A DNA stretch of 64,000 nucleotides from Acidimicrobiaceae bacterium. Lineage in GTDB: Bacteria; Actinomycetota; Acidimicrobiia; Acidimicrobiales; Poriferisodalaceae. Numbering within the stretch: position 1 is the first letter of the stretch; each line of letters starts with the position of its first letter. The DNA is taken from assembly GCA_002705305.1 (NCBI GenBank), contig PAHW01000002.1, positions 26,392 through 90,391 of the forward strand, given 5' to 3'. The notes under the pieces were generated by a model. The model searched no databases and had not been told where the DNA came from. It was given only the letters and a program-made list of their open reading frames with translations. Positions 1-53,536 of the stretch are shown here, in pieces. A program made the position numbers and the translations under genes.

Positions 1-47
1 CAGCCGCGGTCCGCGAACAGAAGTCAAACCTAGTTAACTTCAAGGCC

Positions 48-10641: not shown

Positions 10642-10672
10642 GGTTGCGCTAGTCGGTAAAACATGACCGGGT

Positions 10673-11473: not shown

Positions 11474-11524
11474 GACTCGATGCTAGCCCGTTCGGTATTT
11501 ATTGCCGAAAGAAGTAGCGGTGGA

Positions 11525-32359: not shown

Positions 32360-33616
32360 CTATCCCTTGGCTCGTCCCGCGTACCCAAACAATTTTCCGG
32401 CCACTTTGCGAATCTGGATCTCCTCTGCGCCTTCGGTGATCCGATAGCGCCTGTGATGTCTGTATATGTGTTCGAAGGGCATGCTTCGGCCGTATCCAAC
32501 TCCACCGCAACTCTGCATCGCTCGGTCTGCGGCGTCGCAACAAAATCTGTTTCCTCGGTAGTTACACATGGCCACCCGATCAGTTATCTCCATGTGGTCG
32601 ACTCCCTCGTCCATCTCCCAAGCTGTTTTCCAGATCAACGCTCGGATCATTTCAGCTTCCGTGTACAACTCGGCTAAGGGAAACTGGATCGCCTGGTTTT
32701 GGGAGAGCGGTTTTCCGAAGGTGGTGCGACCATTTACATAGTCAACGGCGACGTCAATGCAATGAAGGCCTGCACCTACTGAAGACGCGGCTTGTCGGAT
32801 CCGATTCTCATGAACAAACAGCTGAGCAGTTTGAAGTCCTCTAGCTTCCTCTCCCAAGATGTCGTCATTGTGAATACGAACGTCGGTTAGGCGGACATGG
32901 GCATGATCTGTTGGCATGTTGAAGGTCCACATGAATTCTTCAACCTTGAATCCCGGTGAATCCACCGGAACGATGAAGCATGTGATCCCATGACCCTCGC
33001 CTGGATTTCCGGACGTCCTCGCAAAGATGTAGTCATGAGTCGCGTGATGAAGTCCTGTGTTCCAGTATTTCTCGCCATTTATCACCCATTCGTCACCGTC
33101 GCGCACGGCCGTGGTCTCCATCCAAGTGGCATCGGAGCCGTGAAGAGGCTCAGTAAGCCCAAACCCGATACGCGCTGTCCCTTCGAGCATTTTGGGAATC
33201 CAATATTCTTTCTGATCTTCTGAACCGAATTTTTCCATCATCAGTACGGTCGGAAAATTACCGATGACGGAGTTTTCGTTCTGAAGGTCGTTGTGAAGGC
33301 CGAGCCCTTTGCGAGCCAAATGTTCTCTGACTATGGCCATCCCAAGATTTGTACCGTTCTGACCGCCGAAACGTTTTGGAAGATGCCAACGCAAGAAACC
33401 CGCGGCGTCGGCCTCGCTACGCATCCGGCCAAGGAGTTGCTCCCACTCGGCGTTGGGTAGGCCATCCCTATGCCAGTCAGTGCGCGAGTCTTCGCGTCGA
33501 TGATCAAAGAATCGTATGTTGTCGTTTTCGTTCTCGATCGGCTTTATTACGTCCTCGATGAACTGGTCAAGATCATCGAGCAATGTTTGTATGTCAGAGG
33601 GAATCGTGAAGTCCAT
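32360..33616 (-). CDS. Acyl-CoA dehydrogenase (FadE2 / ACAD10-11-like type)
   Basis: GFGLTEPLHGSDAT and C-terminal ITEGAEEIQIRKV. ATG 33616 (MDFTIPSDIQ) is preferred over the ORF-track start at 33646. Confidence 0.85.
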   Translation of the reverse strand: MDFTIPSDIQTLLDDLDQFIEDVIKPIENENDNIRFFDHRREDSRTDWHRDGLPNAEWEQLLGRMRSEADAAGFLRWHLPKRFGGQNGTNLGMAIVREHLARKGLGLHNDLQNENSVIGNFPTVLMMEKFGSEDQKEYWIPKMLEGTARIGFGLTEPLHGSDATWMETTAVRDGDEWVINGEKYWNTGLHHATHDYIFARTSGNPGEGHGITCFIVPVDSPGFKVEEFMWTFNMPTDHAHVRLTDVRIHNDDILGEEARGLQTAQLFVHENRIRQAASSVGAGLHCIDVAVDYVNGRTTFGKPLSQNQAIQFPLAELYTEAEMIRALIWKTAWEMDEGVDHMEITDRVAMCNYRGNRFCCDAADRAMQSCGGVGYGRSMPFEHIYRHHRRYRITEGAEEIQIRKVAGKLFGYAGRAKG

Positions 33617-33644
33617 AGGCAGCGAACGTATACGGTCGGACCTC

Positions 33645-34250
33645 ATGGTGTTGCCAATTGTTGTTTGGTCGGACTTTCTGTGACCCTGGTGTCATTTAGC
33701 GCGAGCCCGGGCGGCTCGTCTTGAACAACGACACGACGTAGCTATTTCGTGGTTGCCATACGAGTTACATCCCGAGATTCCCGAGGGCGGTGTTCCTAAC
33801 CATCGTCAATTCTCGGCGCTGCGCACGATTGCTGAAGAACTCCAAGTAACCCTGGTGCCGCCAACAACTTTTTATCCAACAAGGCGCGCCCATCAGGCAG
33901 CCCTCGTGGTCGAGCATGCCTCCCCTGAAGAAGCTGGCATCTATCACGATCGGCTATATGCCTCGATTTGGGAAAATCATCGAGACATCGAAGATCCTGA
34001 GGTGTTAGCCCAGCTAGCGGCTGACCTAACCGTCCCTTCAGGCCTTATCGAGCGGGTTGTTACCAACAACGAATTGTGGCCAGCTGTGTTGTCGTCAATG
34101 CAACGAGCCCACGAATGGGGAGCGACGGGCACCCCGAGTTGGGTAATAGACAACAAACTGATGGTGCCCGGTTTACAAGACGACGATTTTTTTGATCGCG
34201 TCATTGAACGGCTGAGCAATATCAAAAGCGGCGAAGAGAACTCCAAATAA
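33645..34250 (+). CDS. DsbA/FrnE-like thiol:disulfide oxidoreductase, candidate selenoprotein (UxxC; TGA 33681..33683 read as Sec)
   Basis: The ORF-track piece 33753..34250 is DsbA/FrnE-like but lacks the active site. The same frame upstream reads MVLPIVVWSDFL-TGA-PWCHLARARAARLEQRHDVAISWLPYELHPE. This restores the I.VWSD..CPWC signature with TGA at the first Cys position. Confidence 0.7.
33701..33719 (+). promoter_or_regulatory. Candidate bacterial SECIS hairpin for the DsbA-like gene
   Basis: GCGAGCC-CGGGC-GGCUCGU: 6 Watson-Crick pairs plus one G-U pair, with a 5-nt G-rich loop. The loop starts 24 nt after the UGA. A possible lower stem pairs GUGUC (33689..33693) with GACAC (33730..33734). 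Confidence 0.55.
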
Positions 34251-34284: not shown

Positions 34285-35535
34285 ATGCAGCCAACCTATT
34301 CACGAGACGCAGAGGAATACCGCGACAAGATCCAAGACTTCATTACTGAGCACCTACCCGAGGACTGGGAAGGTATTGGGTCCTTAACGGGAGACGCTAA
34401 AGCTGAGTTCGTTCGTCAATGGAGGCAGATTCTTAGCGAAAATCATTTTCTCGCGACTATGTGGCCCACCGACTACGGCGGCCCTGGGTTGACAGTTAAC
34501 GAGAATGTGATTATCGCCGAGGAATTCACGAAAGCCGGGTTGCCGACCGGTGGTTCCAACGATGGTTTCGGTATCGGCATGGTTGGCAACACCCTTATCG
34601 AATGGGGTACTGAGGAACAAAAGAAGCACTATCTCCCACGAATTCTTGATGGCGAAGATATTTGGTGTCAGGGGTATTCGGAACCGGGAGCGGGTTCGGA
34701 CTTAGCCAATCTTGGCTGTCGAGCTGAACTTGACGGCGACGAATGGGTTCTGAACGGACAAAAAATCTGGACATCGAGCGGACATTTGGCGAATTGGATA
34801 TTTGTCCTTGGTCGAACCGCTCCCGATGACGCGAAACATCAAGGCATTACATTTTTCTTGTGTCCCATGAACCAGGAAGGAATTGAGGTTCGGCCCATCG
34901 TTAACATCGCGGGCCACAGTCATTTCAACGAAGTGTTTTTCTCGAACGCGAGGGTGCCGAAGGGCAACGTCGTAGGTCAAGTAAATGGCGGTTGGGCCGT
35001 CGCCATGACGTTGCTGGGCTACGAGCGTGGGTTTGGGGCCACGACGACCTACTTCCGTTATCGATCTGAGTTGGATCGTTTGGTTGAAATGGCCCAACAA
35101 CGCGGTCGGACAGAGGACCCGAACATTCGTCAACGTTTGGCCTGGTGTCATAGCAAAGTCGAAATCATGCGATGGCTCGGCCAACAAGTGTTGACGTCTT
35201 TCTTGAATGGTGAACCGCCAGGGCCCAAGAGTTCAATAGGAAAACTCAATTGGAGCGAATATCACCGCCACGTCACGGAGTTGTCAATCGACATTCTTGG
35301 AGCCGAAGCGATGGTGGTCGAGGGAGATGATGCTCTCGCCGCTGGATTAGGAGCCGCAGACGCAGGCACGCCCAACACGACTTCAGCTTGGATCAATAGT
35401 TTTCTATCAGCGAGATCCGGAACGATCTACGCGGGTACTAGCCAAGTGCAGCGCAACATCATTGGCGAACGAATCTTAGGGTTGCCTAAAGAGCCGCGAG
35501 CTGATGAAGGTCCCTGGAACGAGACGCTTCGCTGA
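34285..35535 (+). CDS. Acyl-CoA dehydrogenase
   Basis: 416 aa with CQGYSEPGAGSDLA and C-terminal GTSQVQRNIIGERILGLPKEP. Confidence 0.85.
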   Translation: MQPTYSRDAEEYRDKIQDFITEHLPEDWEGIGSLTGDAKAEFVRQWRQILSENHFLATMWPTDYGGPGLTVNENVIIAEEFTKAGLPTGGSNDGFGIGMVGNTLIEWGTEEQKKHYLPRILDGEDIWCQGYSEPGAGSDLANLGCRAELDGDEWVLNGQKIWTSSGHLANWIFVLGRTAPDDAKHQGITFFLCPMNQEGIEVRPIVNIAGHSHFNEVFFSNARVPKGNVVGQVNGGWAVAMTLLGYERGFGATTTYFRYRSELDRLVEMAQQRGRTEDPNIRQRLAWCHSKVEIMRWLGQQVLTSFLNGEPPGPKSSIGKLNWSEYHRHVTELSIDILGAEAMVVEGDDALAAGLGAADAGTPNTTSAWINSFLSARSGTIYAGTSQVQRNIIGERILGLPKEPRADEGPWNETLR

Positions 35536-38354: not shown

Positions 38355-39137
38355 ATGGCTGACGGCCTTCGTACTGAAATTCACGGCAACGTGGGAATGG
38401 TCATCATGGACCGCCCCCCACACAACTTTTTGAATTTTCGACAAATTCATGACATAGCTGATGCGCTCGGGGAAATGGAAAATGACATGTCCATCCGCTG
38501 CGCGGTGCTGGCCGCAGAAGGCCGATCATTTTGTGCCGGCGCAGACTTCGCCGGTGACGGAGTAGGTGGAGGTGACGACGAAGTCGTCGGCGGTGACGCG
38601 ACGCTCGCCCTTTACCAAGGGTCAGGACGTCTATTCGACGTAACACTTCCCATAGTTGGGGCCATACAGGGTCCAGCGGTTGGCGGAGGGTTGGGCTTAG
38701 CCATGGTGCCTGATATCAGAATCACGTGTCCCGATGCGCGTTTCTCGGCCAACTTTGCGGCGCTGGGAATCCACCAAGGATTCGGTATGAGTGTCACGCT
38801 CCCAGAACTTCTAGGTCCCTCAAGAGCAGCGCAGGTTCTCTACAGCGCAAAGAGATATAAGGGCGAAGAAGCGGTCCTTATTGGACTCGCCGATGAATGT
38901 GTTCCTTCGTCAGAAGTGAGGGACCGTGCCCTAGAAGTTGCTTCAGACATAGCGGCGAACGCCCCGCTGGCCCTCCGTGCAATCAAGTCGACGCTAAGGC
39001 TCGGTCTTGGTGACCGTGTACGAGAAATCACACAGCGCGAAGCTCAGCTCCAAGCTGAATTGTCCGCTAGTTCTGATGCCAAAGAGGGGATTGCTTCAGT
39101 ATCAGAACGACGACCAGGCAATTTCACCGGACAGTAA
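38355..39137 (+). CDS. Enoyl-CoA hydratase/isomerase (crotonase fold)
   Basis: FCAGADF and GPAVGGGLG oxyanion-hole segments. Paralogue of 10673..11473. Confidence 0.85.
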   Translation: MADGLRTEIHGNVGMVIMDRPPHNFLNFRQIHDIADALGEMENDMSIRCAVLAAEGRSFCAGADFAGDGVGGGDDEVVGGDATLALYQGSGRLFDVTLPIVGAIQGPAVGGGLGLAMVPDIRITCPDARFSANFAALGIHQGFGMSVTLPELLGPSRAAQVLYSAKRYKGEEAVLIGLADECVPSSEVRDRALEVASDIAANAPLALRAIKSTLRLGLGDRVREITQREAQLQAELSASSDAKEGIASVSERRPGNFTGQ

Positions 39138-40098: not shown

Positions 40099-41043
40099 TT
40101 GACACTTCAACCCGATACGCAGGCGTTCATTGAAATGGTTGAGGCTGCCAATGCCGACGCGCCACCCCGATCTGAGCAGTCACCTGAAGATGCGCGAAAC
40201 GGCTACCAGGCATTGGCTCATATTCTTGGACCGGGTCCAGAACCCGGCGGAGGGATAGAAGATTTTCAAATTCCAGGACCGACTGGACAGACACCAGTGC
40301 GGATCTACCGACCACAGGGAGAGGGACCTCATCCAACGCTGACCTTCTTTCACGGCGGAGGGTTTGTCGTAGGCGACTTGGAAACTCACGACAAGGAATG
40401 TCGGCTGCTTTGCGAGAAGGCCAACTGTCTCGTCTTGGCCGTTGACTACCGATTAGCCCCAGAGGCGCCCTTCCCGGCCGCGGTCGAAGACGCTTGGTCA
40501 GCGGTCCAATGGGTTGTCGATCATGGCGCCGAAATAGGCATCGATACCACCCGTGTAGCAGTAGGAGGTGATTCGGCCGGTGGCAATCTCGCCGCTGTCA
40601 TGGCCCTGATGGCTCGCGACGCTGGAATCGACCTGAGACTGCAAATGTTGGTCTACCCAGCCACCGATGCCTCCAAACAGTACGACTCATTCGTTGAAAA
40701 TAAAGACGGTCCGCTGCTGACGGTGGAAGTCATTGACTGGTTCTGGTCGCACTACGTCGGTCATCGAACTGCCGACGAAACGCGAGGTGACTGGCGGTTC
40801 TCTCCCGCATTGGCCGCTAGCCACGCCGGTGTTGCCTCCGCATATGTGGCAACGTGTTCAGCTGACCCGCTTCGCGATGAGGGAAACGCATACGCAGAAC
40901 TTCTCGCGGCGGCAAATGTGCCAGTGCATCATTCAACGTTCGAGGGTGAGCCGCACGTCCTATTTCAAATGTTTAATGTTTGCGATGGCGCAAAAACACT
41001 CATTGAAGAGTGCGCAGCAGCCCTCACGGCGGCATTCAAATGA
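40099..41043 (+). CDS. Alpha/beta hydrolase, hormone-sensitive-lipase-type esterase
   Basis: HGGGF oxyanion motif and GDSAGGNLA nucleophile elbow. TTG start. The stop overlaps the next start (ATGA). Confidence 0.8.
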   Translation: MTLQPDTQAFIEMVEAANADAPPRSEQSPEDARNGYQALAHILGPGPEPGGGIEDFQIPGPTGQTPVRIYRPQGEGPHPTLTFFHGGGFVVGDLETHDKECRLLCEKANCLVLAVDYRLAPEAPFPAAVEDAWSAVQWVVDHGAEIGIDTTRVAVGGDSAGGNLAAVMALMARDAGIDLRLQMLVYPATDASKQYDSFVENKDGPLLTVEVIDWFWSHYVGHRTADETRGDWRFSPALAASHAGVASAYVATCSADPLRDEGNAYAELLAAANVPVHHSTFEGEPHVLFQMFNVCDGAKTLIEECAAALTAAFK

Positions 41044-43250
41044 GGACCACAGTACGGCGAGACCGCTGGGGGATTGCCCATGTTGAGTCACCTAACGTAG
41101 CCCAGGCCTTCGAAGCCCAGGGTTGGATAGCGGCTTCAGACCGGATTTGGCAGATGGACGCCGATCGATTCAAAGCACTTGGGAGATGGGCCGAGGTAGT
41201 TGGACCTGGAGCCCTGAAGGAGGACGCATTTTTTCGACGGATCGGACTTGGGAGCATTGCTCAAGCCGACTGGGGTGCGCTGAACTCTGAGACCCAACAG
41301 ATGACCGAAGCCTATGCCAACGGTGTCAACCGATGGTTGGAGGAAAACCCTGAGGGACTGCCCGCTGAATACGAACACCACCCCGCAGCCCCGGAACCGT
41401 GGGAGCCGTGGCACTGTCTAGCGGTCTACAAAGTCCGACATATATTCATGGGGACCTTGCATCGGAAACTTTGGCGGGGGCACCTCTTGGCAAAGGCGGG
41501 ACCTGAAGTCGTCGCGGCGATGATGGGCGACCCAAACCAAGCATCGGCGATCGCTCCAGGGAATGGAACCCCGCTGAACTTACTCTCGGAGGTGTCTGAC
41601 CTCCTTGATTCTCAATCGGAACTGCTTAAAGCCTTAGTGGACATTGACGGTGGATCGAACTCTTGGGCCGTCGACGGAACACGAACCATTTCAGGTAAAC
41701 CACTGTTGGCAGGCGATCCTCACCGAGGTATCGAATTTCCTAACGTCTACCACCAATTTCATCTGGAATGCCCCGAATTCAACGTGATTGGGCTTGCTTT
41801 TCCCGGCGTTCCCGCTTTCCCCCATTTTGGCCACAATGATCAGGTTGCTTGGTGCATCACGCATGGCATGGCCGACGACACCGACCTCTTCGTTGAAACA
41901 GACAGCCTTGAGGCAATTGATTGGGTTCCAGAGGTAGTTCGTGTCCGCGGTGACGACGATGTCGAAGTTTTTTGTGGCTCAACAGATCGAGGGCCGGTGG
42001 TCATTGGTGATCCGGCCGACGGCATGGCCCTATCGGTTGCCTGGACGGGCATGATCGGTGGTGACACTACCTTCGAAGCCCTTCAACCAATGTTGAGTGC
42101 CTCAAGTTGTGAAGAACTCGAAAATAGCGTTCGACCATGGGTCATACCGGTTAACAATCTGCTCACCGCCGACCGCGATGGAAACATATCTTTCAAGATC
42201 AGGGGACGAGTGATCGAACGCCCACCCGCTAATCGCTGGTGTCCCGTTCCCGGCGACTCCGAACACGGTTGGTCTGGGTTGCGAACTGTTCCCTTCGATG
42301 AACTTCCGGGTGTACAAAATCCCAGCCGCGGATTTTTAGTGACAGCCAACAACAGAATCAGTGATACCCATCCCTTCATTTCGTTAGATTTTGCCGGTCC
42401 CGCTCGATATGACCGGATCGTTGAACTTCTCGAGGAAGTCCCTGAAGCCTCCGTCGAAGACATGCGACGAATTCATGGAGATGTGCTTTCACATAAGGCG
42501 CGTTCCATAGTCCCGCTCTTAATTTCCCAGACCTCTCAAGCCACCCATCGACGAAGCAAATGGCTTCGCGACGTACTCTCAACCTGGGACTTTCAAGTGA
42601 CCGAAAGCTCGGTCGAAGCTTTGTTGTACGCAGTCATGCGACGCAGATGGTCTGAAAGCGTTGGGGAAAGATTAGGAGTATCAATCGCTGAACTTGGGGC
42701 GCCAGGATGGCCATCACCCGAAGCGGCCAGCCGAATGCTCTACGAGGCAGCGACCGCGCTGCTCGATGGTGACGCATGGAAGTGCCTACCAGGACTCGAA
42801 ACAGACGAGGACCTCGATCAAGCGTTGTCGGCGTGCATCGACGAGACTTTGAATGAACTTGAACTCCGACTAGGACAAGACATCTCTCAGTGGTCGTGGG
42901 GGCAGTTACACAGAATGGCATCACCACATCCGTTAGCTTCGGCGCTCGAAGGGGCAAGAGAGCTCCACCCACCCTTGGATAGCTGTCCCGGCGACGGGGA
43001 CACGGTGAGGTGCGGTTCGGTGATGCCCGAAACTGGGGAACGAGCGGTTGCTGCATCGGTAGCGCGCTACGTTTTCGATCTAGCCGACTGGGACTCCTCA
43101 GGTTGGGTCGTGCCTCACGGGGTGTCGGGTGTACGCGGCAGCGGACACGACCTCGATCAGCGAGCGATCTGGCTCGACTGCGATCTAATACCGATGTCGT
43201 TCAGCAAAGATGCCGTATCGGCTATTACTCGCGAAGAATTTGAAATATGA
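41040..43250 (+). CDS. Penicillin acylase-family Ntn hydrolase (no signal peptide)
   Basis: RDRWGIAHV alpha-subunit N-terminus and the GGSNSWAV processing/nucleophile site. The start at ATG 41040 is coupled to the esterase stop. Confidence 0.8.
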   Translation: MRTTVRRDRWGIAHVESPNVAQAFEAQGWIAASDRIWQMDADRFKALGRWAEVVGPGALKEDAFFRRIGLGSIAQADWGALNSETQQMTEAYANGVNRWLEENPEGLPAEYEHHPAAPEPWEPWHCLAVYKVRHIFMGTLHRKLWRGHLLAKAGPEVVAAMMGDPNQASAIAPGNGTPLNLLSEVSDLLDSQSELLKALVDIDGGSNSWAVDGTRTISGKPLLAGDPHRGIEFPNVYHQFHLECPEFNVIGLAFPGVPAFPHFGHNDQVAWCITHGMADDTDLFVETDSLEAIDWVPEVVRVRGDDDVEVFCGSTDRGPVVIGDPADGMALSVAWTGMIGGDTTFEALQPMLSASSCEELENSVRPWVIPVNNLLTADRDGNISFKIRGRVIERPPANRWCPVPGDSEHGWSGLRTVPFDELPGVQNPSRGFLVTANNRISDTHPFISLDFAGPARYDRIVELLEEVPEASVEDMRRIHGDVLSHKARSIVPLLISQTSQATHRRSKWLRDVLSTWDFQVTESSVEALLYAVMRRRWSESVGERLGVSIAELGAPGWPSPEAASRMLYEAATALLDGDAWKCLPGLETDEDLDQALSACIDETLNELELRLGQDISQWSWGQLHRMASPHPLASALEGARELHPPLDSCPGDGDTVRCGSVMPETGERAVAASVARYVFDLADWDSSGWVVPHGVSGVRGSGHDLDQRAIWLDCDLIPMSFSKDAVSAITREEFEI

Positions 43251-43321
43251 CAGCGAGCGATCTAAGACCTATAGGTGTGATTCCGAATTTTCAACTCACG
43301 AGACACGAGTAGCTTCATGCC

Positions 43322-44416
43322 ATGGCGGTAACCAACCACGACAGCGAACTGGACATCGACCCGATGTTCATCTCTACTCACAACGACCTATGGCTGCGAC
43401 TTGGTAGCTGCGGAACCTGGTGGACCGGCCCCCAACGCGTAGCCGCAATGTCGGAAGTCCGCGCGGCATTCGAATGTGACCTATGTTCCGAGCGTTCTGA
43501 AGCGCTGAGCCCGTTAATGATTGAAGGAGTTCATGACTCGGTATCCGAGCTTCCTCCAGAAGCGGTGGATTTGGTTCATAGATTGACGACCGATCCGGGT
43601 CGCCTAACCCAACCGTGGGCGAACACAATCATCGACGTTTTAGGCGAAGAACGCTATGTGGAAATCGTCACAGTCGTTTGTGTCCAATATGTCATAGAGA
43701 GCTTCGCCCGAAATCTTGGACTACCACTCCCAGACCTGCCTGAGGCGGGCGACGGAATTCCCAATCACGTGCGACCAACCGATGTCGGAGACGTCGGCGC
43801 ATGGGTCAGTCAAACGGTTGACAAAAAATTGGCAAATGTCTCCAGAGCCGCATCTCTAGTTCCCGACACAGAAGTGTTATGGCGGGACCTGGTGCAATGT
43901 CACTACAGCCGCGGACCACAATTTGCCGAACTGGTCTGGGACCGAGCACTCGCTAGACCCCAAGTCGAATTGTTGGCATCCACCGTTTCTGCACTTAATG
44001 AGTGCTTCTACTGAACTGCGGCCCATGTATCGCTGCTCCGTGCGAGCAGCGAAGCCAGCGACACCGAGGTCGCAATTGAGCAACTGGAAGATGGAGCTCA
44101 GGTCGAACACGGCTCCGCCCTCGTGCGCTACGCGGAATCAGCAGTTCAACGAGACAGTGATCTAACTGAATCTCGTACCCGCCTGTTGCGACTTATCGGG
44201 CCACAAGCGCTCGTCGAAGCTTCGGCGACAGTTTCGGCTTTCGAGGGGCTTAACCGCATTGCCGACGCAACAGGCATCCAGCTCGATGCCGGATTAGCGG
44301 ACGAATCTGCTGATTTCAGAAACGATCTAGGGATTAACTCTTACGCGGGTGCGGTGAACACCAAATCAAACGGATCTCCCGATCGAGCCGACAGCGTCCT
44401 TGGAATTTTTCGCTGA
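43322..44416 (+). CDS. AhpD / carboxymuconolactone-decarboxylase (CMD)-like protein, candidate selenoprotein (CxxU; TGA 44012..44014 read as Sec)
   Basis: ORFs 43322..44014 and 44123..44416 are in the same frame, with no other stop between them. Read-through gives ...LLASTVSALNECFY-TGA-TAAHVSLLRASS..., the AhpD CxxCxxxH motif with TGA at the second Cys. Confidence 0.7.
44030..44052 (+). promoter_or_regulatory. Candidate bacterial SECIS hairpin for the AhpD-like gene
   Basis: UCGCUGCUC-CGUGC-GAGCAGCGA: a perfect 9-bp stem with a 5-nt loop containing GU. The loop starts 24 nt after the UGA. Confidence 0.6.
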
Positions 44417-44451
44417 AGGTCACATAAAGACCCTCGGGTTGGCGCGGCCCG

Positions 44452-45600
44452 CTATTCAGTAGAGATTTGAGGTTCCCTCGGCAGTCCCAAAAGACGCTCG
44501 CCAATAATGTTTCGTTGGATTTCACTGGAGCCACCGGCAATACGCATGCCCGGGGAGTAGAGCAAAGATTCAATTGATGGACTCGCAAGCAACGACTGAG
44601 CTCCCTGTAGGGCCGCATTCAATTGCGCCTCGTCGTAACCCAACTCACTGTTCATCAACTTGGCTACTGGAGCTACCCGCGGATCGCCGCCCCTTCGCTC
44701 CATAAGCGACTGGAGGGCTCTCCCACGATTCAAAATTCCGACAAGCCCGTCAATCTGAAGTGAGTCAATTTCACCGAGTCCCTGAATCATCTCTTGCAGT
44801 CGGCGACGAAGGCTAATGACACCTGCCGCGCCCGCACCGCCTCGTTCATCTTCCAGGACGGACATCGCGACCGCCCAACCGCCGTTCAAGTCACCTAAGA
44901 CAGCATCGGAAGGAACCTCCACATCGGTGAAAAACACCTCACAGAATTCACTTTCTCCGGTCATTTGCTTTATTGGGCGTACCTCAACTCCATCAAGGGT
45001 CATATCAAGCAAAAAGAACGTAATGCCCTTATGTTTTGGCTGTTCGAAATCAGTTCTTGCCATGAGGATGCCGAACTGAGCCAATTGGGCATTCGAAGAC
45101 CAAACTTTTTGTCCATTGAGAACAAAGTGATCTCCGTCGAGGACGGCTGAACTTTGCAGTCCCGCCAAATCAGACCCTGCGCCAGGCTCACTGAACAATT
45201 GGCACCAAAGAATGTCGTTACGTAACGTCGGGCGAAGAAAGCGTTCCCGCTGAGCTTCAGTCCCGGACCGCAAAATTGCCTCTCCAGCTAGCACCAAACC
45301 CTGCAAGTTCAAGTACGGCGCGACTTCAGCGACCGCGCATTCCTCGTGCCAAACGACGTTATTTTCAGCGGTCAAACCCATGCCGCCGTGCTCCTGTGGC
45401 CAGTGCACTCCAGCCCACCCGTGGTCGAAACAAAATCGCTGCCAGTGCATGGCTTCCTGATGGAGCCCCGGAGGCAAAATCGCACCGTACGCCGGACATG
45501 CATCGCCCGAAGCAACAGCGTTAGCTATGAAAAGCGCTGCCTTTTCACGAAAGGTCTCTAGTGGTTGACTATCGGACACCCTTGAGACCGTAGCGCCCAC
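44452..45600 (-). CDS. Acyl-CoA dehydrogenase
   Basis: 382 aa, GTG start, with CQLFSEPGAGSDLA and C-terminal GGSSEIQRNIIGERLLGLPREP. Confidence 0.85.
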   Translation of the reverse strand: MGATVSRVSDSQPLETFREKAALFIANAVASGDACPAYGAILPPGLHQEAMHWQRFCFDHGWAGVHWPQEHGGMGLTAENNVVWHEECAVAEVAPYLNLQGLVLAGEAILRSGTEAQRERFLRPTLRNDILWCQLFSEPGAGSDLAGLQSSAVLDGDHFVLNGQKVWSSNAQLAQFGILMARTDFEQPKHKGITFFLLDMTLDGVEVRPIKQMTGESEFCEVFFTDVEVPSDAVLGDLNGGWAVAMSVLEDERGGAGAAGVISLRRRLQEMIQGLGEIDSLQIDGLVGILNRGRALQSLMERRGGDPRVAPVAKLMNSELGYDEAQLNAALQGAQSLLASPSIESLLYSPGMRIAGGSSEIQRNIIGERLLGLPREPQISTE

Positions 45601-47908: not shown

Positions 47909-49633
47909 GTGTCTGATCCAGAGTTCGACATCGTCATCAGAGGAGGCTCAGTCGTCGACGGCGACGGTTCGCCAATCAAAGAAGCCGATGTAGCAATTTT
48001 AGGTGACCGAATTGTTGGTGTGGGCGAGATCAACGGTTCTGGCTATCGCGAAATTGACGCGAAAGGCCGCATCGTTACCCCAGGCTTCGTTGACATACAC
48101 ACCCACCTCGATGCCCAGTTGGCTTGGGACCCGATTGGATCGAGTTCTTGTTGGCACGGCATCACCTCGGTGGTAATGGGCAACTGCGGGGTGACGTTCG
48201 CTCCTGTTCGCACTGAAGACATCTCATATTTGGCTGAAGTGATGGAATCGGTTGAGGACATCCCGAGAGAGGCAATCCTGGAAGGTTTGCCATGGGATTG
48301 GCGGACCTATGGCGAATACCTGGACTTTCTAGATGGATTGCCTAAAGGCTTGAACGTAGGCGGCATGGTTGGGCACGTGGCAGTTCGCTGGAACGTCATG
48401 GGGCAGGACAGCCTTGACGAAGATCCTGCTTCTCCTGAACAAATCGAAGCGATGTGCGCGCTCGTTGACGAAGCCATGTCAGCAGGTGCGCTCGGGTTCT
48501 CAACTTCTCGAACGCTGCTACATCGCACCCCTGATGGTCGACCCATCCCCGGAACTTTCGCTGATGACGACGAACTGTACGCGTTTGCCGAAGTGTTAGG
48601 TCGCCACGAACGCGGTGTCTTTGAAGCCGCGCCTCGTTTCGAAAAAGCCGGCGCAGACTGGGCCGGCCTGAAACATGAGATACGGACGCTTGGAGAAATC
48701 ACGCGGCGAAGTGGACGCCCATCAACGTTTGGTCTCGTGTACAACGCTGTTCGGCCAGACATGAGTGAAGTCGCGCTAATTGAAGTTGCGTCAGAAAACT
48801 CAAACGGCGCAACCCTCCGACCTCAGACCACCTGTCGCCCGATCGGTGTGGTTCTTGGAATCCAACATCGGACGCCCTGGGCTCGCGCCGGAGCGACATG
48901 GAGGTCAATGCAGCATCTGGATCTCGCGGGCCGACTCGCCGTCATCAGAGATCCCGAAAGCCGCCGACGGCTAATTGAGGAGGCCAACAACCCCGAGGAG
49001 ATTCACGGCGGCGGCAGCGCAATGGTTGATCTCAGCCGGCTGTATCTCCTTGACGCCGAAAATCCCAACTATCGAGTAGGACCGGACGGGACCTTAGAAG
49101 CGAAAGCCGCTCAGGAAGGCATTACACCCGTCGAATTGTTCCTAAACGAAACCGACCGTTCAGACGGTTCGGTGATGCTTTCGCTGCCCATTTTAAACCA
49201 GGACTATGAAGCCATCGAAACCATGCTCCAGGACGAATCAATCGTCATGGGCCTAGCCGATGCAGGGGCACATGTGGGGCAAATCATGGATTCCAGTCAA
49301 CCGACCTACTTCCTGAGCCACTGGGTTCGAGACACCGGATTTTTCTCCCTCGAAGAGGGCGTGCGGAGAATCACTTCGGATACAGCGGATCTGTTCGGAC
49401 TAGTGGACCGCGGGCGAATAGTCGAGGGCGGCTACGCGGACATCAACATCATCGACTTTGACCAATTGGCCCTAACCGGACCCGAATACGTACATGACTT
49501 CCCCGGAGGGTCGGGACGTTACGTGCAACGCGGAGTCGGATACGACGCCACGATTGTCAACGGCCAGGTGTTCATGGAACACGGGGAACACACCGGTGCT
49601 TTAGCTGGCGTCACGCTGCGCTCAACAGACTGA
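47909..49633 (+). CDS. N-acyl-D-amino-acid deacylase (D-aminoacylase) family amidohydrolase
   Basis: GTG start preceded by AAGGGAGGA. Contains IRGGSVVDGDG...GFVDIHTHLD and ADAGAHV. Paralogue of 3750..5462. Confidence 0.8.
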   Translation: MSDPEFDIVIRGGSVVDGDGSPIKEADVAILGDRIVGVGEINGSGYREIDAKGRIVTPGFVDIHTHLDAQLAWDPIGSSSCWHGITSVVMGNCGVTFAPVRTEDISYLAEVMESVEDIPREAILEGLPWDWRTYGEYLDFLDGLPKGLNVGGMVGHVAVRWNVMGQDSLDEDPASPEQIEAMCALVDEAMSAGALGFSTSRTLLHRTPDGRPIPGTFADDDELYAFAEVLGRHERGVFEAAPRFEKAGADWAGLKHEIRTLGEITRRSGRPSTFGLVYNAVRPDMSEVALIEVASENSNGATLRPQTTCRPIGVVLGIQHRTPWARAGATWRSMQHLDLAGRLAVIRDPESRRRLIEEANNPEEIHGGGSAMVDLSRLYLLDAENPNYRVGPDGTLEAKAAQEGITPVELFLNETDRSDGSVMLSLPILNQDYEAIETMLQDESIVMGLADAGAHVGQIMDSSQPTYFLSHWVRDTGFFSLEEGVRRITSDTADLFGLVDRGRIVEGGYADINIIDFDQLALTGPEYVHDFPGGSGRYVQRGVGYDATIVNGQVFMEHGEHTGALAGVTLRSTD

Positions 49634-50209: not shown

Positions 50210-51004
50210 ATGGGTGACGTAGTCCTATACGAAGAAAACGACGGTGTCGCGCTGGTAACCCTTAACCGGCCCGAACGCCTTAATTCATGGACCGATGAGC
50301 TCGGCTCAGCTTATTTTGATGCTCTCGATCGTGGCGCGGCCTCGAGCGATGTCAACGCAATAGTGGTGACGGGTGCAGGAAGAGGATTCTGCTCAGGAGC
50401 TGACATGGACATGCTCCAGGGAATTGGAGCAAGCGAAGGCGGGGAAGAAACACCCCAACAACTACGAGCCGAAAGACATGACTACGCCCTTACCATCCCC
50501 AAACCGGTAATAGCCGCCATCAACGGGGCATGCGCCGGCTTGGGCTTCGTTCACGCGATGATGTGCGATATTCGCTTTGCCGCCGAGGGAGCGAAATTTA
50601 CCAGTGCGTTCTCGCGACGAGGACTGATCGCTGAACATGGCGTGTCCTACATGTTGCCGAGAGTTGTCGGTCCCTCTAATGCGTTAGACATCTTGATGTC
50701 CGGACGCGTTTTCTTAGCGGAAGAAGCTAAAGAGATGGGCGTAGTGAGTCGGGTGTTGGCCCCGGAGGATCTACTTACCGCCACTGTCGAATACGCGCAG
50801 GAATTGGGGCGCTACAGCGCGCCATGGTCGATGGCCCAGATGAAGCGCCAAGTCTGGACCCAAATGGACATGGCTCGCACAGACGCTTTGAACGAATCAA
50901 ATCAAATAATGGCTCAATCGTTGAAGAGGCCAGATTTCAAGGAAGGAGTCGCGAGTTTCGTTGAAAAACGCGATCCCTCCTTTGAGCCAGTCACAGGCCT
51001 ATAA
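50210..51004 (+). CDS. Enoyl-CoA hydratase/isomerase (crotonase fold)
   Basis: LNRPERLNS, FCSGADM and GACAGLGF segments. Confidence 0.85.
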   Translation: MGDVVLYEENDGVALVTLNRPERLNSWTDELGSAYFDALDRGAASSDVNAIVVTGAGRGFCSGADMDMLQGIGASEGGEETPQQLRAERHDYALTIPKPVIAAINGACAGLGFVHAMMCDIRFAAEGAKFTSAFSRRGLIAEHGVSYMLPRVVGPSNALDILMSGRVFLAEEAKEMGVVSRVLAPEDLLTATVEYAQELGRYSAPWSMAQMKRQVWTQMDMARTDALNESNQIMAQSLKRPDFKEGVASFVEKRDPSFEPVTGL

Positions 51005-52672: not shown

Positions 52673-52735
52673 TGAACAATTGCTCGCCAGGCCTGGTTAC
52701 GAGCAGACTGTATTTGCTGAACAAAGGAAGTAGTG

Positions 52736-53536
52736 ATGTCCGATCGTGTTTTAGTAAGCGTCGTTGACGGAGTCGCCGATGTCCGGTTAAACCGGCCCGA
52801 AAAGCTAAACGCCCTCGACAGCGCAATGTTCAAAGCGCTGGCGGATGCGGGGGAGAGCCTAAAGGACCGCTCGGATGTGCGAGCGGTAGTCCTCAGCGGC
52901 GAAGGAAGGTCTTTTTGCGCGGGCCTCGATTTCTCGTCGTTTCAGGCAATGGGCACCTCGAAAGAAGATAAAAACGAACCCGACGCCGTAGATCATCTCG
53001 AAGGTCGAATCACACACCTCGGTCAACAAGCCGCTTGGGTATGGCAGGAACTACAGGTTCCAGTCATTGGAGCGATTTCAGGGCACGCACTTGGTGGGGG
53101 ATTTCAGATTGCAATGGGACCAGATATCCGCTTGGTTCATCCCGAAACGAAAATGTCGGTTCTTGAAATTAGGTGGGGCCTAGTGCCGGATATGGGAGCC
53201 TCGGTTCTTCTACCGCCCTTAGTTGGTCTGGATGTCGCTAAAGAGCTGTACTTCACCGGGCGAATGATCTCGGGAACTGAAGCAGCGGAACTTGGGGTCG
53301 CTACCCGAGTCAGCGATGACCCTCACACGGAAGCCTTGGACTTGGCGAAAGAAATAGCCGAAAAGAATCCTGAAGCCATCCGTCGGATGAAAACAATTCT
53401 CAACGGACTCGGCGAACGCTCCACAGCTGAACGTTTCGCTGCTGAACGTGAACACATTGGAGCGCTAATCGGATCACCAAACCAAGTGGAGGCGGTCTCA
53501 GCCTTCTTCGAAAAGCGCACTCCCAGATTCTCGTGA
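52736..53536 (+). CDS. Enoyl-CoA hydratase/isomerase (crotonase fold)
   Basis: LNRPEKLNAL, FCAGLDF and GHALGGGF segments. Confidence 0.85.
   Translation: MSDRVLVSVVDGVADVRLNRPEKLNALDSAMFKALADAGESLKDRSDVRAVVLSGEGRSFCAGLDFSSFQAMGTSKEDKNEPDAVDHLEGRITHLGQQAAWVWQELQVPVIGAISGHALGGGFQIAMGPDIRLVHPETKMSVLEIRWGLVPDMGASVLLPPLVGLDVAKELYFTGRMISGTEAAELGVATRVSDDPHTEALDLAKEIAEKNPEAIRRMKTILNGLGERSTAERFAAEREHIGALIGSPNQVEAVSAFFEKRTPRFS

What the first reader, a model, noticed from the sequence alone, without database searches (positions are those of the whole stretch)
43322..44416. AhpD/CMD-like gene split by an in-frame TGA inside the CxxCxxxH motif (C-F-Y-U-T-A-A-H): second candidate selenoprotein
ORFs 43322..44014 and 44123..44416 are in the same frame. 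I translated 44015..44122 and found no further stop codon. The junction reads ...QVELLASTVSALNECFY-TGA-TAAHVSLLRASSEASDTEVAIEQLEDG.... That is the alkylhydroperoxidase AhpD / carboxymuconolactone decarboxylase active-site signature CxxCxxxH, with the second Cys codon replaced by TGA (44012..44014). A perfect 9-bp hairpin (44030..44038 / 44044..44052) with loop CGUGC follows. AhpD-like proteins are one of the families in which Sec/Cys pairs have been reported, so the interpretation is biologically coherent. The 364-aa architecture, with a roughly 220-aa N-terminal region that has its own CDLC pair, is not one I can place.
Basis: partly seen in the sequence, partly recalled or inferred. Interest (0 to 1): 0.85.

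Follow-up and report, generated by a model that had tools for sequence, protein, structure and literature searches.

The report
Known AhpD-related selenoprotein gene (CFYUT)

Summary
Window 43322..44416 (+) is a single frame with one internal stop, TGA at 44012-44014, inside C-F-Y-TGA-T-A-A-H. A perfect 9-bp hairpin (44030-44052, loop CGUGC) follows.

- The read-through protein matches NCBIfam NF041238 [quoted passage not shown] over its full length (375 bits, cutoff 175).
- All 80 related loci fetched, nearly all labelled Acidimicrobiia, carry TGA at this codon.
- The frame stays open for 131-164 more codons and shows protein-type substitution patterns.
- The hairpin sits at the same offset in all relatives, has compensatory changes, and has the strongest synonymous-site constraint in the gene.
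- Full-length Cys-forms (C-F-Y-C-x3-H) exist, for example in Microbulbifer and Parashewanella.
- E216/C228/Y230/U231/H235 reproduce the AhpD proton relay, with Sec at the second Cys.

A 2026 review equates NF041238 with "hypothetical protein 1" of the 2005 Sargasso Sea selenoproteome, so this is already known.

Three points remain open. The Sec machinery could not be checked in the source genome. The biochemical function and substrate are unknown. The first ~165 residues match no known family. A DsbA-like gene in the same window (TGA at 33681) has the same hairpin geometry, which supports Sec decoding in this organism.

The parts
43322..44416 (+). Complete selenoprotein gene: 364 sense codons (one of them UGA = Sec) plus the terminal TGA at 44414-44416. 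Member of NCBIfam NF041238 (AhpD_rel_CFYUT).
   Evidence: Single frame with one internal TGA. NF041238 E 4.7e-112, 374.8 bits against cutoff 175, profile positions 5-356 of 357. tblastn of relatives spans residues 1-364.
44012..44014 (+). In-frame TGA, inferred selenocysteine codon (U231). It takes the second Cys position of the AhpD CxxC motif.
   Evidence: TGA in all 80 related loci fetched plus the window. It aligns with Cys in full-length Cys-forms and with the second Cys of the CxxC in PDB AhpD-like proteins 6k40 and 3c1l.
44030..44052 (+). Bacterial SECIS-type hairpin. Stem 44030-44038 / 44044-44052 (9 bp), apical loop 44039-44043 CGUGC. The loop starts 24 nt after the UGA.
   Evidence: Hairpin alone -15.2 kcal/mol. 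Same register in 74 distinct relatives: 88.7% of cells paired against 22-60% when partners are slid, G-C to A-U (or U-A to G-C) double changes at 4 pairs, loop G29 and G31 invariant. Third-codon-position diversity 0.17 against 0.61 for the rest of the gene, the lowest of 183 seven-codon windows. It meets the bSECIS constraints quoted in PMC13188914.
43967..44026 (+). Active-site helix-turn-helix encoding the AhpD proton relay: E216 (43967-69), C228 (44003-05), Y230 (44009-11), U231 (44012-14), H235 (44024-26). Pattern E-x11-C-x-Y-U-x3-H.
   Evidence: All five positions are invariant in the full-length family alignment A3. They correspond to Glu36/Cys48/Tyr50/Cys51/His55 of PA0269 and Glu118/Cys130/His132/Cys133/His137 of M. 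tuberculosis AhpD (PMC3141380).
43844..44281 (+). AhpD-fold (CMD superfamily) catalytic domain, roughly residues 175-320. The Sec codon lies inside it.
   Evidence: Pfam CMD at residues 203-271. TIGR01926 at residues 201-319, below its cutoff. The family profile matches PDB 6k40, 3c1l, 2pfx, 2oyo and 2prr over profile positions 166-311. The Foldseek search of the full-length Cys-form model returns the same structures at probability 1.00.
43322..43816 (+). Family-specific N-terminal helical region, roughly residues 1-165, of unknown function. It carries many invariant residues (G31, W33, R39, R47, H71, H86, R94, Y112, E114, G145, P147, G156, G159, A160). The C30/C52/C55 cysteines are specific to one subclade.
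   Evidence: No Pfam family. No PDB sequence match. The AF2 model of residues 1-230 is confident (pLDDT 85) and helical but has no Foldseek match.
44015..44413 (+). Coding sequence downstream of the Sec codon (residues 232-364). Gene callers either drop it or call it as a separate 73-160 aa fragment.
   Evidence: Open for 131-164 codons in all relatives, ending in TGA, TAG or TAA. Protein-type codon-position pattern, with conserved motifs UTxxH..LLRxS and EAaaTvaaFxGLxRvADxTGIxLD. Database entries for this half are only fragments.

Best explanation
Window 43322-44416 is one gene for a 364-residue selenoprotein of the curated family NF041238. That family is the 'alkylhydroperoxidase-related (seleno)protein' with motif CFYUT, equal to 'hypothetical protein 1' of the 2005 Sargasso Sea selenoproteome.

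Translation (inferred from anatomy and conservation). When the ribosome reaches UGA 44012-44014, the hairpin at 44030-44052 acts as a bacterial SECIS. Its apical loop CGUGC starts 24 nt after the UGA. The hairpin recruits SelB-GTP-Sec-tRNA(Sec), Sec is inserted, and translation runs on to the true stop at 44414-44416.

Protein (shown by sequence, profile and model). A family-specific helical N-terminal region of about 165 aa precedes an AhpD-fold domain. That domain's helix-turn-helix carries the full AhpD proton relay: E216-x11-C228-x-Y230-U231-x3-H235.

Chemistry (inferred by analogy with AhpD). The selenolate of U231 is the nucleophile. It attacks an oxidised substrate such as a peroxide, a protein sulfenate or a disulfide. 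C228 resolves the intermediate to an intramolecular selenenylsulfide, and an unidentified reductant recycles it. The physiological substrate and partner are unknown.
For: Family:
- NF041238 full-length hit, 374.8 bits against cutoff 175.
- A truncated Actinomycetota MAG copy and the Cys-forms already carry that name in GenBank/RefSeq.
- The review table links NF041238 to Sargasso 'hypothetical protein 1', motif CxxU. The 2005 paper describes it.

Recoding:
- TGA at the aligned codon in all 80 related loci plus the window.
- 118 of 120 homologues, and 100 of 149 representatives at 50% identity, end at C-x-Y.
- The downstream frame stays open for 131-164 codons, with position 3 far more variable than positions 1 and 2.
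- T232, H235, L238 and L239 are invariant and lie upstream of the first in-frame start codon after the TGA in the window, the GTG at 44123.
- Cys-forms read C-[FYTH]-Y-C-x3-H at the same column, and 10 of 10 tested are NF041238 members.

SECIS:
- Geometry fits the consensus: 5-nt loop, 9-bp stem, G then U at loop positions 2-3, 24-nt spacing, -15.2 kcal/mol.
- The register is conserved and there are compensatory changes.
- Synonymous sites are frozen. Leu+8 is CTC in 80/80, Arg+9 is CGT in 73/75, and the third base of codon +10 is G in 80/80 although the amino acid varies A/V/E.
- A second TGA-interrupted redox gene in the window (DsbA-like, TGA at 33681) has its loop CGGGC at the identical +28 offset.

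Not a reassigned code: TGA is the commonest ordinary stop in the window, 26 of 59 long ORFs.

Fold and active site:
- The PDB profile hits AhpD-like proteins, with U aligned on the second Cys.
- The relay residues match PMC3141380.
- The AF2 model of Cys-form P0180 has pLDDT 92.9, and its top Foldseek hits are AhpD-like structures.
Against: - No tRNA-Sec and no selA/selB/selD were found in the 64-kb window. No tRNA gene was found in 60 of the related loci, and no sel motifs in any of the 80. The motif scans were crude, and the rest of the genome is not available here. Sec competence of this organism therefore rests on indirect evidence.
- No Rfam family matched. Rfam represents bacterial SECIS elements poorly.
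- Covariation is modest because the stem is so conserved. 'Pairs with change on both sides' did not exceed shuffles (193/500).
- The hairpin overlaps the conserved peptide LLRxS, so part of its conservation is protein-driven.
- There is no experimental evidence of Se incorporation or of any enzymatic activity for any member of this family.
- No ahpC or other redox partner is nearby, and there is no family-wide conserved neighbour.
- The protein scores below the cutoffs of the TIGR01926 and TIGR00778 AhpD models.
Confidence: 0.92

Rival explanations
1. The TGA is a genuine stop. The locus encodes a 230-aa protein ending in CFY, and a separate small protein is translated from an internal start downstream. 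This is how most automatic annotations treat it.
For: Gene callers produce exactly this split. Sec machinery was not demonstrated in this genome.
Against: - The AhpD domain would be cut inside its catalytic helix-turn-helix. The second redox residue and His235 would be lost.
- Residues directly after the TGA (T232, H235, L238, L239, S242) are invariant. They lie upstream of the first in-frame start codon after the TGA in the window, the GTG at 44123.
- Downstream fragment lengths vary from 73 to 160 aa because no conserved start exists.
- Cys-forms are single continuous proteins.
- The stop at this codon is TGA in the window and all 80 relatives, whereas the true terminal stop varies among TGA, TAG and TAA.
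Confidence: 0.03
2. The TGA is read through without selenocysteine. This could be near-cognate Trp or Cys insertion, a suppressor tRNA, or a lineage-specific reassignment of UGA.
For: Sequence alone cannot identify the inserted residue, and no Sec genes were seen in the window.
Against: - TGA is the most frequent ordinary stop in this window, 26 of 59 ORFs.
- Only two TGA sites in 64 kb have long open frames on both sides plus a hairpin. Both replace a redox Cys, in CxxU and UxxC motifs.
- The hairpin fits the SelB-type bSECIS consensus, with the conserved G-U in the loop.
- The family is listed among accepted bacterial selenoproteins.
- A sister order of the same class carries complete Sec machinery (preprint 10.64898/2026.04.03.716425).
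Confidence: 0.03
3. The TGA is a sequencing or assembly error, or a recent inactivating mutation (pseudogene), of a TGC/TGT Cys codon.
For: A single-base difference separates TGA from TGC or TGT.
Against: TGA is present in all 80 independently assembled relatives, spanning 43-81% protein identity. Purifying selection acts on both sides of the codon. A co-conserved hairpin is under synonymous constraint.
Confidence: 0.01
4. The hairpin is only a by-product of the conserved peptide L-L-R-A-S-S and has no RNA function. Sec insertion, if any, would depend on another element.
For: The stem lies wholly within conserved codons. The count of pairs with double changes does not beat column shuffles.
Against: - Amino-acid conservation does not explain codon choice: Leu is CTC in 80/80, Arg is CGT in 73/75, and Ser is only AGC/AGT and never TCN.
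- The third base of codon +10 is an invariant G while the amino acid there varies among A, V and E.
- This seven-codon window has the lowest synonymous diversity of 183 in the gene.
- Stem pairing collapses when partners are slid.
- The unrelated DsbA-like gene has a hairpin with the same offset and loop type over a different peptide.
Confidence: 0.04

Closest known systems
NCBIfam NF041238 'AhpD_rel_CFYUT', alkylhydroperoxidase-related (seleno)protein; equal to 'hypothetical protein 1' of the Sargasso Sea selenoproteome (Zhang, Fomenko & Gladyshev 2005, PMC1088965; equated in PMC13188914)
   Same: Full-length match well above the cutoff. Same length of about 360 aa, same two-part architecture, same C-F-Y-U-T motif, and a hairpin after the UGA. 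The window gene is a member.
   Different: Nothing substantive. Public entries for this marine Acidimicrobiales clade are mostly stored as truncated 230-aa ORFs plus orphan C-terminal fragments.
Cys-forms of the same family, e.g. Microbulbifer spp. WP_444884422.1 and Parashewanella tropica WP_133406768.1
   Same: 36-46% identity over the N-terminal 230 aa. Same NF041238 membership and the same E-x11-C-x-Y-C-x3-H site.
   Different: Cys replaces Sec, and the proteins are 363-418 aa long. The two Cys-forms that carry names come from Gammaproteobacteria rather than Acidimicrobiia.
AhpD-like 'peroxidase-related' proteins with solved structures (PDB 2prr, 3c1l, 6k40, 2oyo, 2pfx; P. aeruginosa PA0269, 2o4d) and M. 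tuberculosis AhpD (Rv2429)
   Same: All-helical AhpD fold. The catalytic helix-turn-helix carries the five-residue proton relay, of the PA0269 type (Glu/Cys/Tyr/Cys/His). Sec sits at the second Cys.
   Different: Those proteins are 145-197 aa, single-domain Cys proteins. This one has an extra family-specific N-terminal region of about 165 aa. It scores below the TIGR01926 and TIGR00778 cutoffs and has no ahpC neighbour. M. tuberculosis AhpD has His, not Tyr, between the cysteines.
'AhpD-like 1' (COG2128) and 'AhpD-like 2' / CMD-domain (PF02627) CxxU selenoproteins of the Sargasso and GOS surveys
   Same: Marine origin, AhpD/CMD superfamily, CxxU motif with Sec at the second position.
   Different: The 2026 review lists these as separate families (TIGR01926, PF02627) from NF041238. 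They lack the long N-terminal region.
Sestrin2 (PDB 5t0n, 5dj4)
   Same: It is the only whole-length structural similarity found: a single chain built of two helical AhpD-like lobes (TM about 0.43-0.45).
   Different: The match is weak (E 0.5-1.1, rmsd about 15 A, 9-11% identity). Sestrin2 is eukaryotic, has no Sec and has different active-site residues. This is a lead, not a relationship.

Membership tests
NCBIfam NF041238 (AhpD_rel_CFYUT) | HMM score at or above the curated cutoff of 175 bits | tested here: met
   374.8 bits, E 4.7e-112.
NCBIfam NF041238 (AhpD_rel_CFYUT) | End-to-end coverage of the ~357-position profile, i.e. the two-part architecture | tested here: met
   Protein residues 16-342 align to profile positions 5-356 of 357.
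NCBIfam NF041238 (AhpD_rel_CFYUT) | C-F-Y-U/C-T active-site motif | tested here: met
   NECFY-TGA-TAAH at 44003-44026. C228, F229, Y230, U231 and T232 are invariant in A3.
Bacterial selenoprotein gene | In-frame UGA conserved among orthologues, never replaced by another stop codon | tested here: met
   TGA in the window and all 80 related loci.
Bacterial selenoprotein gene | Protein-level conservation continues downstream of the UGA | tested here: met
   The frame is open for 131-164 codons. Codon-position diversity is .379/.338/.593. Invariant residues start directly after the UGA.
Bacterial selenoprotein gene | Homologues with Cys aligned to the UGA (a Sec/Cys pair) | tested here: met
   Sixteen full-length representatives read C-x-Y-C-x3-H at the aligned position. 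Ten of ten tested are NF041238 members.
Bacterial selenoprotein gene | bSECIS hairpin meeting the consensus: loop 3-9 nt, upper stem 4-16 bp, G in the first two loop positions, 16-37 nt from UGA to loop, MFE <= -7.5 kcal/mol (PMC13188914) | tested here: met
   Loop CGUGC (5 nt; G at position 2, then U). Stem 9 bp, spacing 24 nt, -15.2 kcal/mol. Conserved in 74 distinct relatives. bSECISearch and deep-Sep themselves were not run.
Bacterial selenoprotein gene | selA, selB, selC (tRNA-Sec) and selD present in the same genome | not testable with these tools
   None found in the 64-kb window. No tRNA gene in 60 related loci, and no sel motifs in any of the 80. Indirect support: a second Sec-type gene in the window, and Sec machinery in the sister order Actinomarinales.
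Bacterial selenoprotein gene | Physical incorporation of selenium (75Se labelling or mass spectrometry) | not testable with these tools
   This is an experimental test. I found no report of it for this family.
AhpD (alkylhydroperoxidase D) / AhpD-like peroxidase-related proteins | Five-residue proton relay Glu-x11-Cys-x-(His/Tyr)-Cys-x3-His on a helix-turn-helix | tested here: met
   E216, C228, Y230, U231 and H235 are all invariant. The pattern is taken from PMC3141380.
AhpD (alkylhydroperoxidase D) / AhpD-like peroxidase-related proteins | AhpD all-helical fold | tested here: met
   The model of the Cys-form homologue P0180 has pLDDT 92.9. Foldseek hits 2prr, 3c1l, 6k40 and 2oyo have probability 1.00 and TMt 0.5-0.69. 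The test was run on a homologue, because the window's read-through sequence could not be submitted.
AhpD (alkylhydroperoxidase D) / AhpD-like peroxidase-related proteins | Score at or above the cutoff of the curated AhpD models TIGR01926 (81.8 bits) and TIGR00778 (27.8 bits) | tested here: not met
   39.6 and 24.1 bits. The protein is related to these subfamilies but is not a member of them.
AhpD (alkylhydroperoxidase D) / AhpD-like peroxidase-related proteins | Genomic association with ahpC (peroxiredoxin), as in M. tuberculosis | tested here: not met
   The neighbours are a penicillin amidase, an acyl-CoA dehydrogenase, a lipase and an M20 peptidase. No neighbour is conserved beyond the ~20 closest loci.
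AhpD (alkylhydroperoxidase D) / AhpD-like peroxidase-related proteins | Peroxidase or AhpC-reductase activity | not testable with these tools
   This requires a biochemical assay.
Pfam CMD (PF02627, carboxymuconolactone decarboxylase family) | Domain score at or above the gathering threshold of 23 bits | tested here: met
   26.2 bits, residues 203-271. This shows superfamily membership only. PMC3141380 says true gamma-CMD decarboxylases lack the Cys-X-X-Cys motif and the relay residues, so the protein belongs on the AhpD branch.

The most novel reading that the evidence does not exclude
The family may not be a peroxide-defence AhpD at all. It could be a two-lobed, Sestrin-like AhpD-fold selenoenzyme. 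In that reading, the family-specific N-terminal region builds a binding site for a different substrate, and the C228/U231 pair performs some other reductive chemistry. That region has about 20 invariant residues, including R39, R47, H71, H86, R94, Y112 and E114, and no detectable relatives.

A precedent is the AhpD-fold debrominase Bmp8, which appears among the structural hits. The Sec form also occurs in several marine and soil lineages: Acidimicrobiia, Ardenticatenaceae and Rhodospirillales.
Probability: 0.15. Interest if true: 0.55.

Novelty: already known. Interest (0 to 1): 0.22.

Why it matters
For annotation: this gene and hundreds of relatives are stored in public databases as a 230-aa stub plus an orphan fragment. 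Recognising the Sec codon restores a complete redox enzyme. It also flags this uncultured marine Acidimicrobiales lineage as a selenium user, together with the DsbA-like gene 10 kb upstream.

For biology: the family has been known since 2005, but no function, partner or structure has been reported for it. The analysis here adds three things for anyone who wants to characterise it:
- a well-defined SECIS consensus (stem GCUGCUC / GAGCAGC with loop CGUGY at +28);
- assignment of all five AhpD proton-relay residues;
- a confident two-lobed model.

It does not open a new question.

Tried and rejected
- Full read-through protein in the exhaustive representative search. I used the exact N-terminal ORF instead.
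- Rfam at gathering thresholds over the whole window: no hit. This is uninformative, because bacterial SECIS elements are poorly represented in Rfam.
- Sec machinery. ARAGORN on the window and on 60 loci found no tRNA genes. Motif scans for the SelB G1 box, the SelD N-terminus and the SelA PLP site found nothing in the window or in any locus. These motif scans are crude, so a negative result carries little weight.
- A search with only the C-terminal 134 aa for Cys-forms returned only 73-160 aa fragments.
- N-terminal region. There is no Pfam family at E <= 1, no PDB sequence match, and no Foldseek match for the model of residues 1-230.
- Gene neighbourhood as a functional clue. Synteny holds only among the ~20 closest marine relatives, and no partner is conserved family-wide.
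- Promoter and terminator consensus scan of 43150-44600: nothing found.
- The N-terminal C52-D-L-C55 pair as a second redox centre. Rejected as a family feature, because many members have N/D-x-L-D there.
- A global reassignment of TGA. Rejected, because TGA terminates 26 of 59 long ORFs in the window.
Full report
**1. Observation**

Window 43322..44416 on the + strand translates as one frame of 364 sense codons. There is a single internal stop, TGA at 44012-44014, and a terminal TGA at 44414-44416.

Positions 44030-44038 (TCGCTGCTC) are the exact reverse complement of 44044-44052 (GAGCAGCGA), with the 5-nt loop CGTGC between them. The hairpin alone folds at -15.2 kcal/mol.

**2. Family**

With U written as C, the read-through protein hits Pfam CMD (PF02627) at residues 203-271, at 26.2 bits against a gathering score of 23.

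More decisively, it hits NCBIfam equivalog NF041238 'AhpD_rel_CFYUT, alkylhydroperoxidase-related (seleno)protein'. The E-value is 4.7e-112 and the score 374.8 bits against a cutoff of 175, covering profile positions 5-356 of 357. The generic AhpD models TIGR01926 and TIGR00778 are hit only below their cutoffs.

[quoted passage not shown] The 2005 Sargasso Sea paper introduced 'hypothetical protein 1' as a new selenoprotein family of four sequences, with a conserved CXXU motif and no functional evidence (PMC1088965). The family has therefore been known as a selenoprotein for two decades.

**3. Is the TGA conserved and read through?**

- *Database homologues.* A search of 5.8 billion proteins returned 579 homologues. 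All 120 best are 216-256 aa long, and 118 of them end in exactly ...CFY, down to 48% identity.
- *Genomic loci.* A scan of one genome per species found 285 relatives, of which 80 loci were fetched. Nearly all are labelled Acidimicrobiales, other Acidimicrobiia or unclassified Actinomycetota. They include marine lineages (MED-G01, MedAcidi-G3, 'Ca. Microthrix sp.' UBA bins, Tara bins) and Ilumatobacteraceae. The tblastn matches run across the stop and cover query residues 1-364.
- *The codon itself.* All 80 loci have TGA at the aligned codon, in C-F-Y-TGA-T-x-x-H. The 80th, L014, has N's next to it.
- *Downstream frame.* It stays open for 131-164 further codons in every locus and then ends in a mixture of TGA, TAG and TAA.
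- *Substitution pattern.* Mean pairwise diversity at codon positions 1/2/3 is .379/.338/.593 downstream of the TGA and .345/.274/.599 upstream. Both halves therefore evolve as protein.
- *Residues just after the TGA.* T232, H235, L238, L239 and S242 are invariant. They lie upstream of the first in-frame start codon after the TGA in the window, the GTG at 44123. A separately translated downstream gene could not explain that conservation.
- *How databases store the downstream half.* It exists only as fragments of 73-160 aa with inconsistent starts.

**4. Cys-forms**

I ran an exhaustive HMMER search of 1.84 billion cluster representatives with the exact N-terminal ORF. It found 828 relatives. 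Of the 149 best whose sequences I read, 100 end at C-x-Y, the Sec position. About 17 are full-length (339-418 aa), and 16 of these read C-[FYTH]-Y-C-x3-H at the aligned column.

Ten of ten Cys-forms tested are full-length NF041238 members, at 242-415 bits. RefSeq names them 'alkylhydroperoxidase-related (seleno)protein' in Microbulbifer spp. and Parashewanella tropica. Sec-type truncated copies also occur in Ardenticatenaceae (Chloroflexota) and Rhodospirillales MAGs.

**5. The hairpin as a SECIS**

The review quotes the bacterial SECIS constraints:
- apical loop of 3-9 nt;
- upper stem of 4-16 bp;
- a G in the first two loop positions, usually followed by G or U;
- 16-37 nt between the UGA and the loop;
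- MFE of -7.5 kcal/mol or lower.

The window hairpin has a 5-nt loop CGUGC, a 9-bp stem, 24-nt spacing and -15.2 kcal/mol. It meets all of them.

In 74 distinct relatives the hairpin sits in the same register, with core GCUGCUC-CGUGY-GAGCAGC. On the stated structure, 88.7% of cells pair, against 22-60% when the 3' partners are slid by 1-3 columns. The three loop-proximal pairs never vary. Four pairs show double changes (G-C to A-U, or U-A to G-C). Loop positions G29 and G31 are invariant, and U30 nearly so. Covariation is modest because the element is so conserved, and the count of pairs with double changes does not beat column shuffles (193/500).

Synonymous-site constraint is the stronger argument:
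- Third-position diversity over the seven hairpin codons is 0.168, against 0.609 for the rest of the gene.
- That is the lowest of all 183 seven-codon windows in the gene.
- Leu+8 is CTC in 80/80.
- Arg+9 is CGT in 73/75.
- The third base of codon +10 is G in 80/80, although the amino acid there varies among A, V and E.

This is RNA-level selection on top of the peptide LLRxS.

**6. Independent support inside the window**

I scanned all TGA codons for open frames on both sides and for a hairpin of this geometry. Only two sites combine both: 44012 and 33681.

The second site lies in a gene (ATG 33645 to stop 34250) that reads MVLPIVVWSDFL-U-PWCHL... With U written as C it matches Pfam DSBA (PF01323) end to end, at E 2.3e-26. 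DsbA-like UxxC selenoproteins come from the same 2005 survey.

Its hairpin has a 7-bp stem at +21..27 / +33..39 and a loop CGGGC at +28..32. That is the same offset and loop type (C-G-N-G-C) as the AhpD-related gene, over an unrelated peptide. Two redox genes with a UGA at a catalytic Cys position and matching hairpins argue that this organism decodes Sec.

TGA is also the commonest ordinary stop here, ending 26 of 59 long ORFs, so the code is not reassigned.

**7. What could not be shown**

The window contains no tRNA gene. It also contains no SelB G1, SelD N-terminal or SelA PLP-site motif. ARAGORN found no tRNA gene in 60 of the related loci, and the motif scans found nothing in any of the 80. 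This is the main gap.

A 2026 preprint reports selA, selB, selC and selD in all 84 complete genomes of Actinomarina, a genus of a sister order in the same class. That is context, not proof.

**8. Protein anatomy and likely chemistry**

A profile of 20 full-length family members matches solved AhpD-like 'peroxidase-related' proteins only over profile positions about 166-311. The hits are 6k40 (4.9e-11), 3c1l, 2pfx, 2oyo, 2prr and PA0269/2o4d. The family's C-F-Y-U aligns with their C-x-Y-C.

PMC3141380 defines the AhpD proton relay as Glu118/Cys130/His132/Cys133/His137 in M. tuberculosis AhpD, and Glu36/Cys48/Tyr50/Cys51/His55 in PA0269. The family has E216/C228/Y230/U231/H235 with identical spacing, and all five are invariant. 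This is the PA0269-type relay with Sec at the second Cys.

From my own knowledge of the M. tuberculosis AhpD literature (Koshkin et al., J Biol Chem 2003; not re-read here), the second Cys, Cys133, is the more reactive nucleophile. That fits Sec occupying this position.

The inferred cycle has three steps:
1. The selenolate of U231 attacks an oxidised substrate.
2. C228 resolves the intermediate to a selenenylsulfide.
3. An unknown reductant recycles the pair.

None of these steps has been tested for any member of this family.

**9.

Residues 1 to about 165 match no Pfam family and no PDB sequence. An AlphaFold model of the exact 230-aa ORF is confident (pLDDT 85, pTM 0.82) and helical, but it has no Foldseek match.

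A full-length model of Cys-form P0180 is very confident (pLDDT 92.9, pTM 0.92). Its top hits are AhpD-like structures at probability 1.00, each covering about half of the chain. The only whole-length similarity is a weak one to Sestrin2, a protein of two AhpD-like lobes (TM about 0.43-0.45, E 0.5-1.1). I record this as a lead only.

The region carries many invariant residues: G31, W33, R39, R47, H71, H86, R94, Y112 and E114, among others. It is therefore functional, and may contribute to substrate binding.

Many members have N/D-x-L-D there.

**10. Context**

The neighbours are catabolic enzymes:
- enoyl-CoA hydratase
- YfcH-type oxidoreductase
- HSL-family lipase
- penicillin amidase (PF01804)
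- acyl-CoA dehydrogenase (convergent)
- M20 peptidase
- amidohydrolase

Clustering of the flanking ORFs across the related loci shows this arrangement only in the ~20 closest marine relatives. No partner is conserved across the whole family, and there is no ahpC. No sigma-70-like promoter or intrinsic terminator was found around the gene.

**11. Verdict**

This is one gene with an in-frame UGA inside the AhpD C-x-x-C-x3-H site, followed by a SECIS-type hairpin, in a family with Sec/Cys pairs. It is also already known: NF041238, first reported in 2005. Interest is therefore low.

Three things remain open. They are the direct demonstration of Sec machinery and Sec insertion in this lineage, the biochemical function and partner, and the nature of the N-terminal region.

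Noticed in passing
window 33645-34250 (+); TGA at 33681-33683; hairpin 33701-33719: A second probable selenoprotein gene. It is DsbA-like (MVLPIVVWSDFL-U-PWC..., motif UxxC) and matches Pfam DSBA PF01323 over its full length at E 2.3e-26 when U is written as C. A 7-bp hairpin follows, with loop CGGGC at +28..32, the same offset and loop type as the AhpD-related gene. Gene callers would see only ORF 33753-34250.
   Followed up: partly
window 43409-43411 (C30) and 43475-43486 (C52-D-L-C55): Three extra cysteines in the N-terminal region co-occur in the marine subclade (SCGTWW ... CxLC). In many other family members they are replaced by P-G-D-W ... N/D-x-L-D. This is a clade-specific disulfide or metal site, or a vestigial one. 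It is not part of the family signature.
   Followed up: partly
L031 (NZ_JBFWVK010000017.1, 'Nocardioides sp.') and L045 (JBLIKS010000287.1, 'Ca. Azotimanducaceae'): Two short contigs of about 4 kb carry the Sec-form gene but are assigned to MAGs outside the Acidimicrobiia. L031 has the same 66 nt after the TGA as L032, an Acidimicrobiales MAG. This looks like binning contamination rather than true taxonomic spread.
   Followed up: no
L042/L043 (MAG CAVVZI01) and L059/L077 (MAG CAVOQV01): Two copies of the Sec-form gene lie on different contigs of the same Ilumatobacteraceae MAG. They could be paralogues or strain heterogeneity in the bins.
   Followed up: no
window 17821 (- strand): A TGA is followed by an 11-bp hairpin with loop AGUGC at +28, the same geometry as the two Sec candidates. 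Only 7 open codons lie upstream, and the site falls inside the coordinates of the 768-aa ORF 16281-18587 on the same strand. It is probably chance: about 7 such sites are expected in shuffled sequence.
   Followed up: no
window-wide, e.g. 9445-13749, 32360-33646, 34285-35535, 38355-39137, 44452-45600, 50210-51004, 52733-53536, 63236-64003: The window looks dense in acyl-CoA dehydrogenase, enoyl-CoA hydratase, CoA-transferase and amidohydrolase genes. Two of the listed ranges (38355-39137 and 44452-45600) and the amidohydrolase at 47909-49633 were confirmed by NCBIfam. The rest are judged by eye from N-terminal sequences. This is not connected to the finding.
   Followed up: no
window 41010-41043: The lipase-like ORF 40099-41043 and the penicillin-amidase ORF 41010-43250 overlap by 34 nt when the amidase is started at its most upstream GTG. 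The real amidase start is probably further downstream.
   Followed up: no
relatives P0170/P0327 (Ardenticatenaceae) and P0299/P0344 (Rhodospirillales): Truncated, Sec-type copies ending at C-F-Y also occur in Chloroflexota and Alphaproteobacteria MAGs. The two Cys-forms that carry names are gammaproteobacterial. The Sec/Cys state therefore follows lineage and is spread across phyla.
   Followed up: partly
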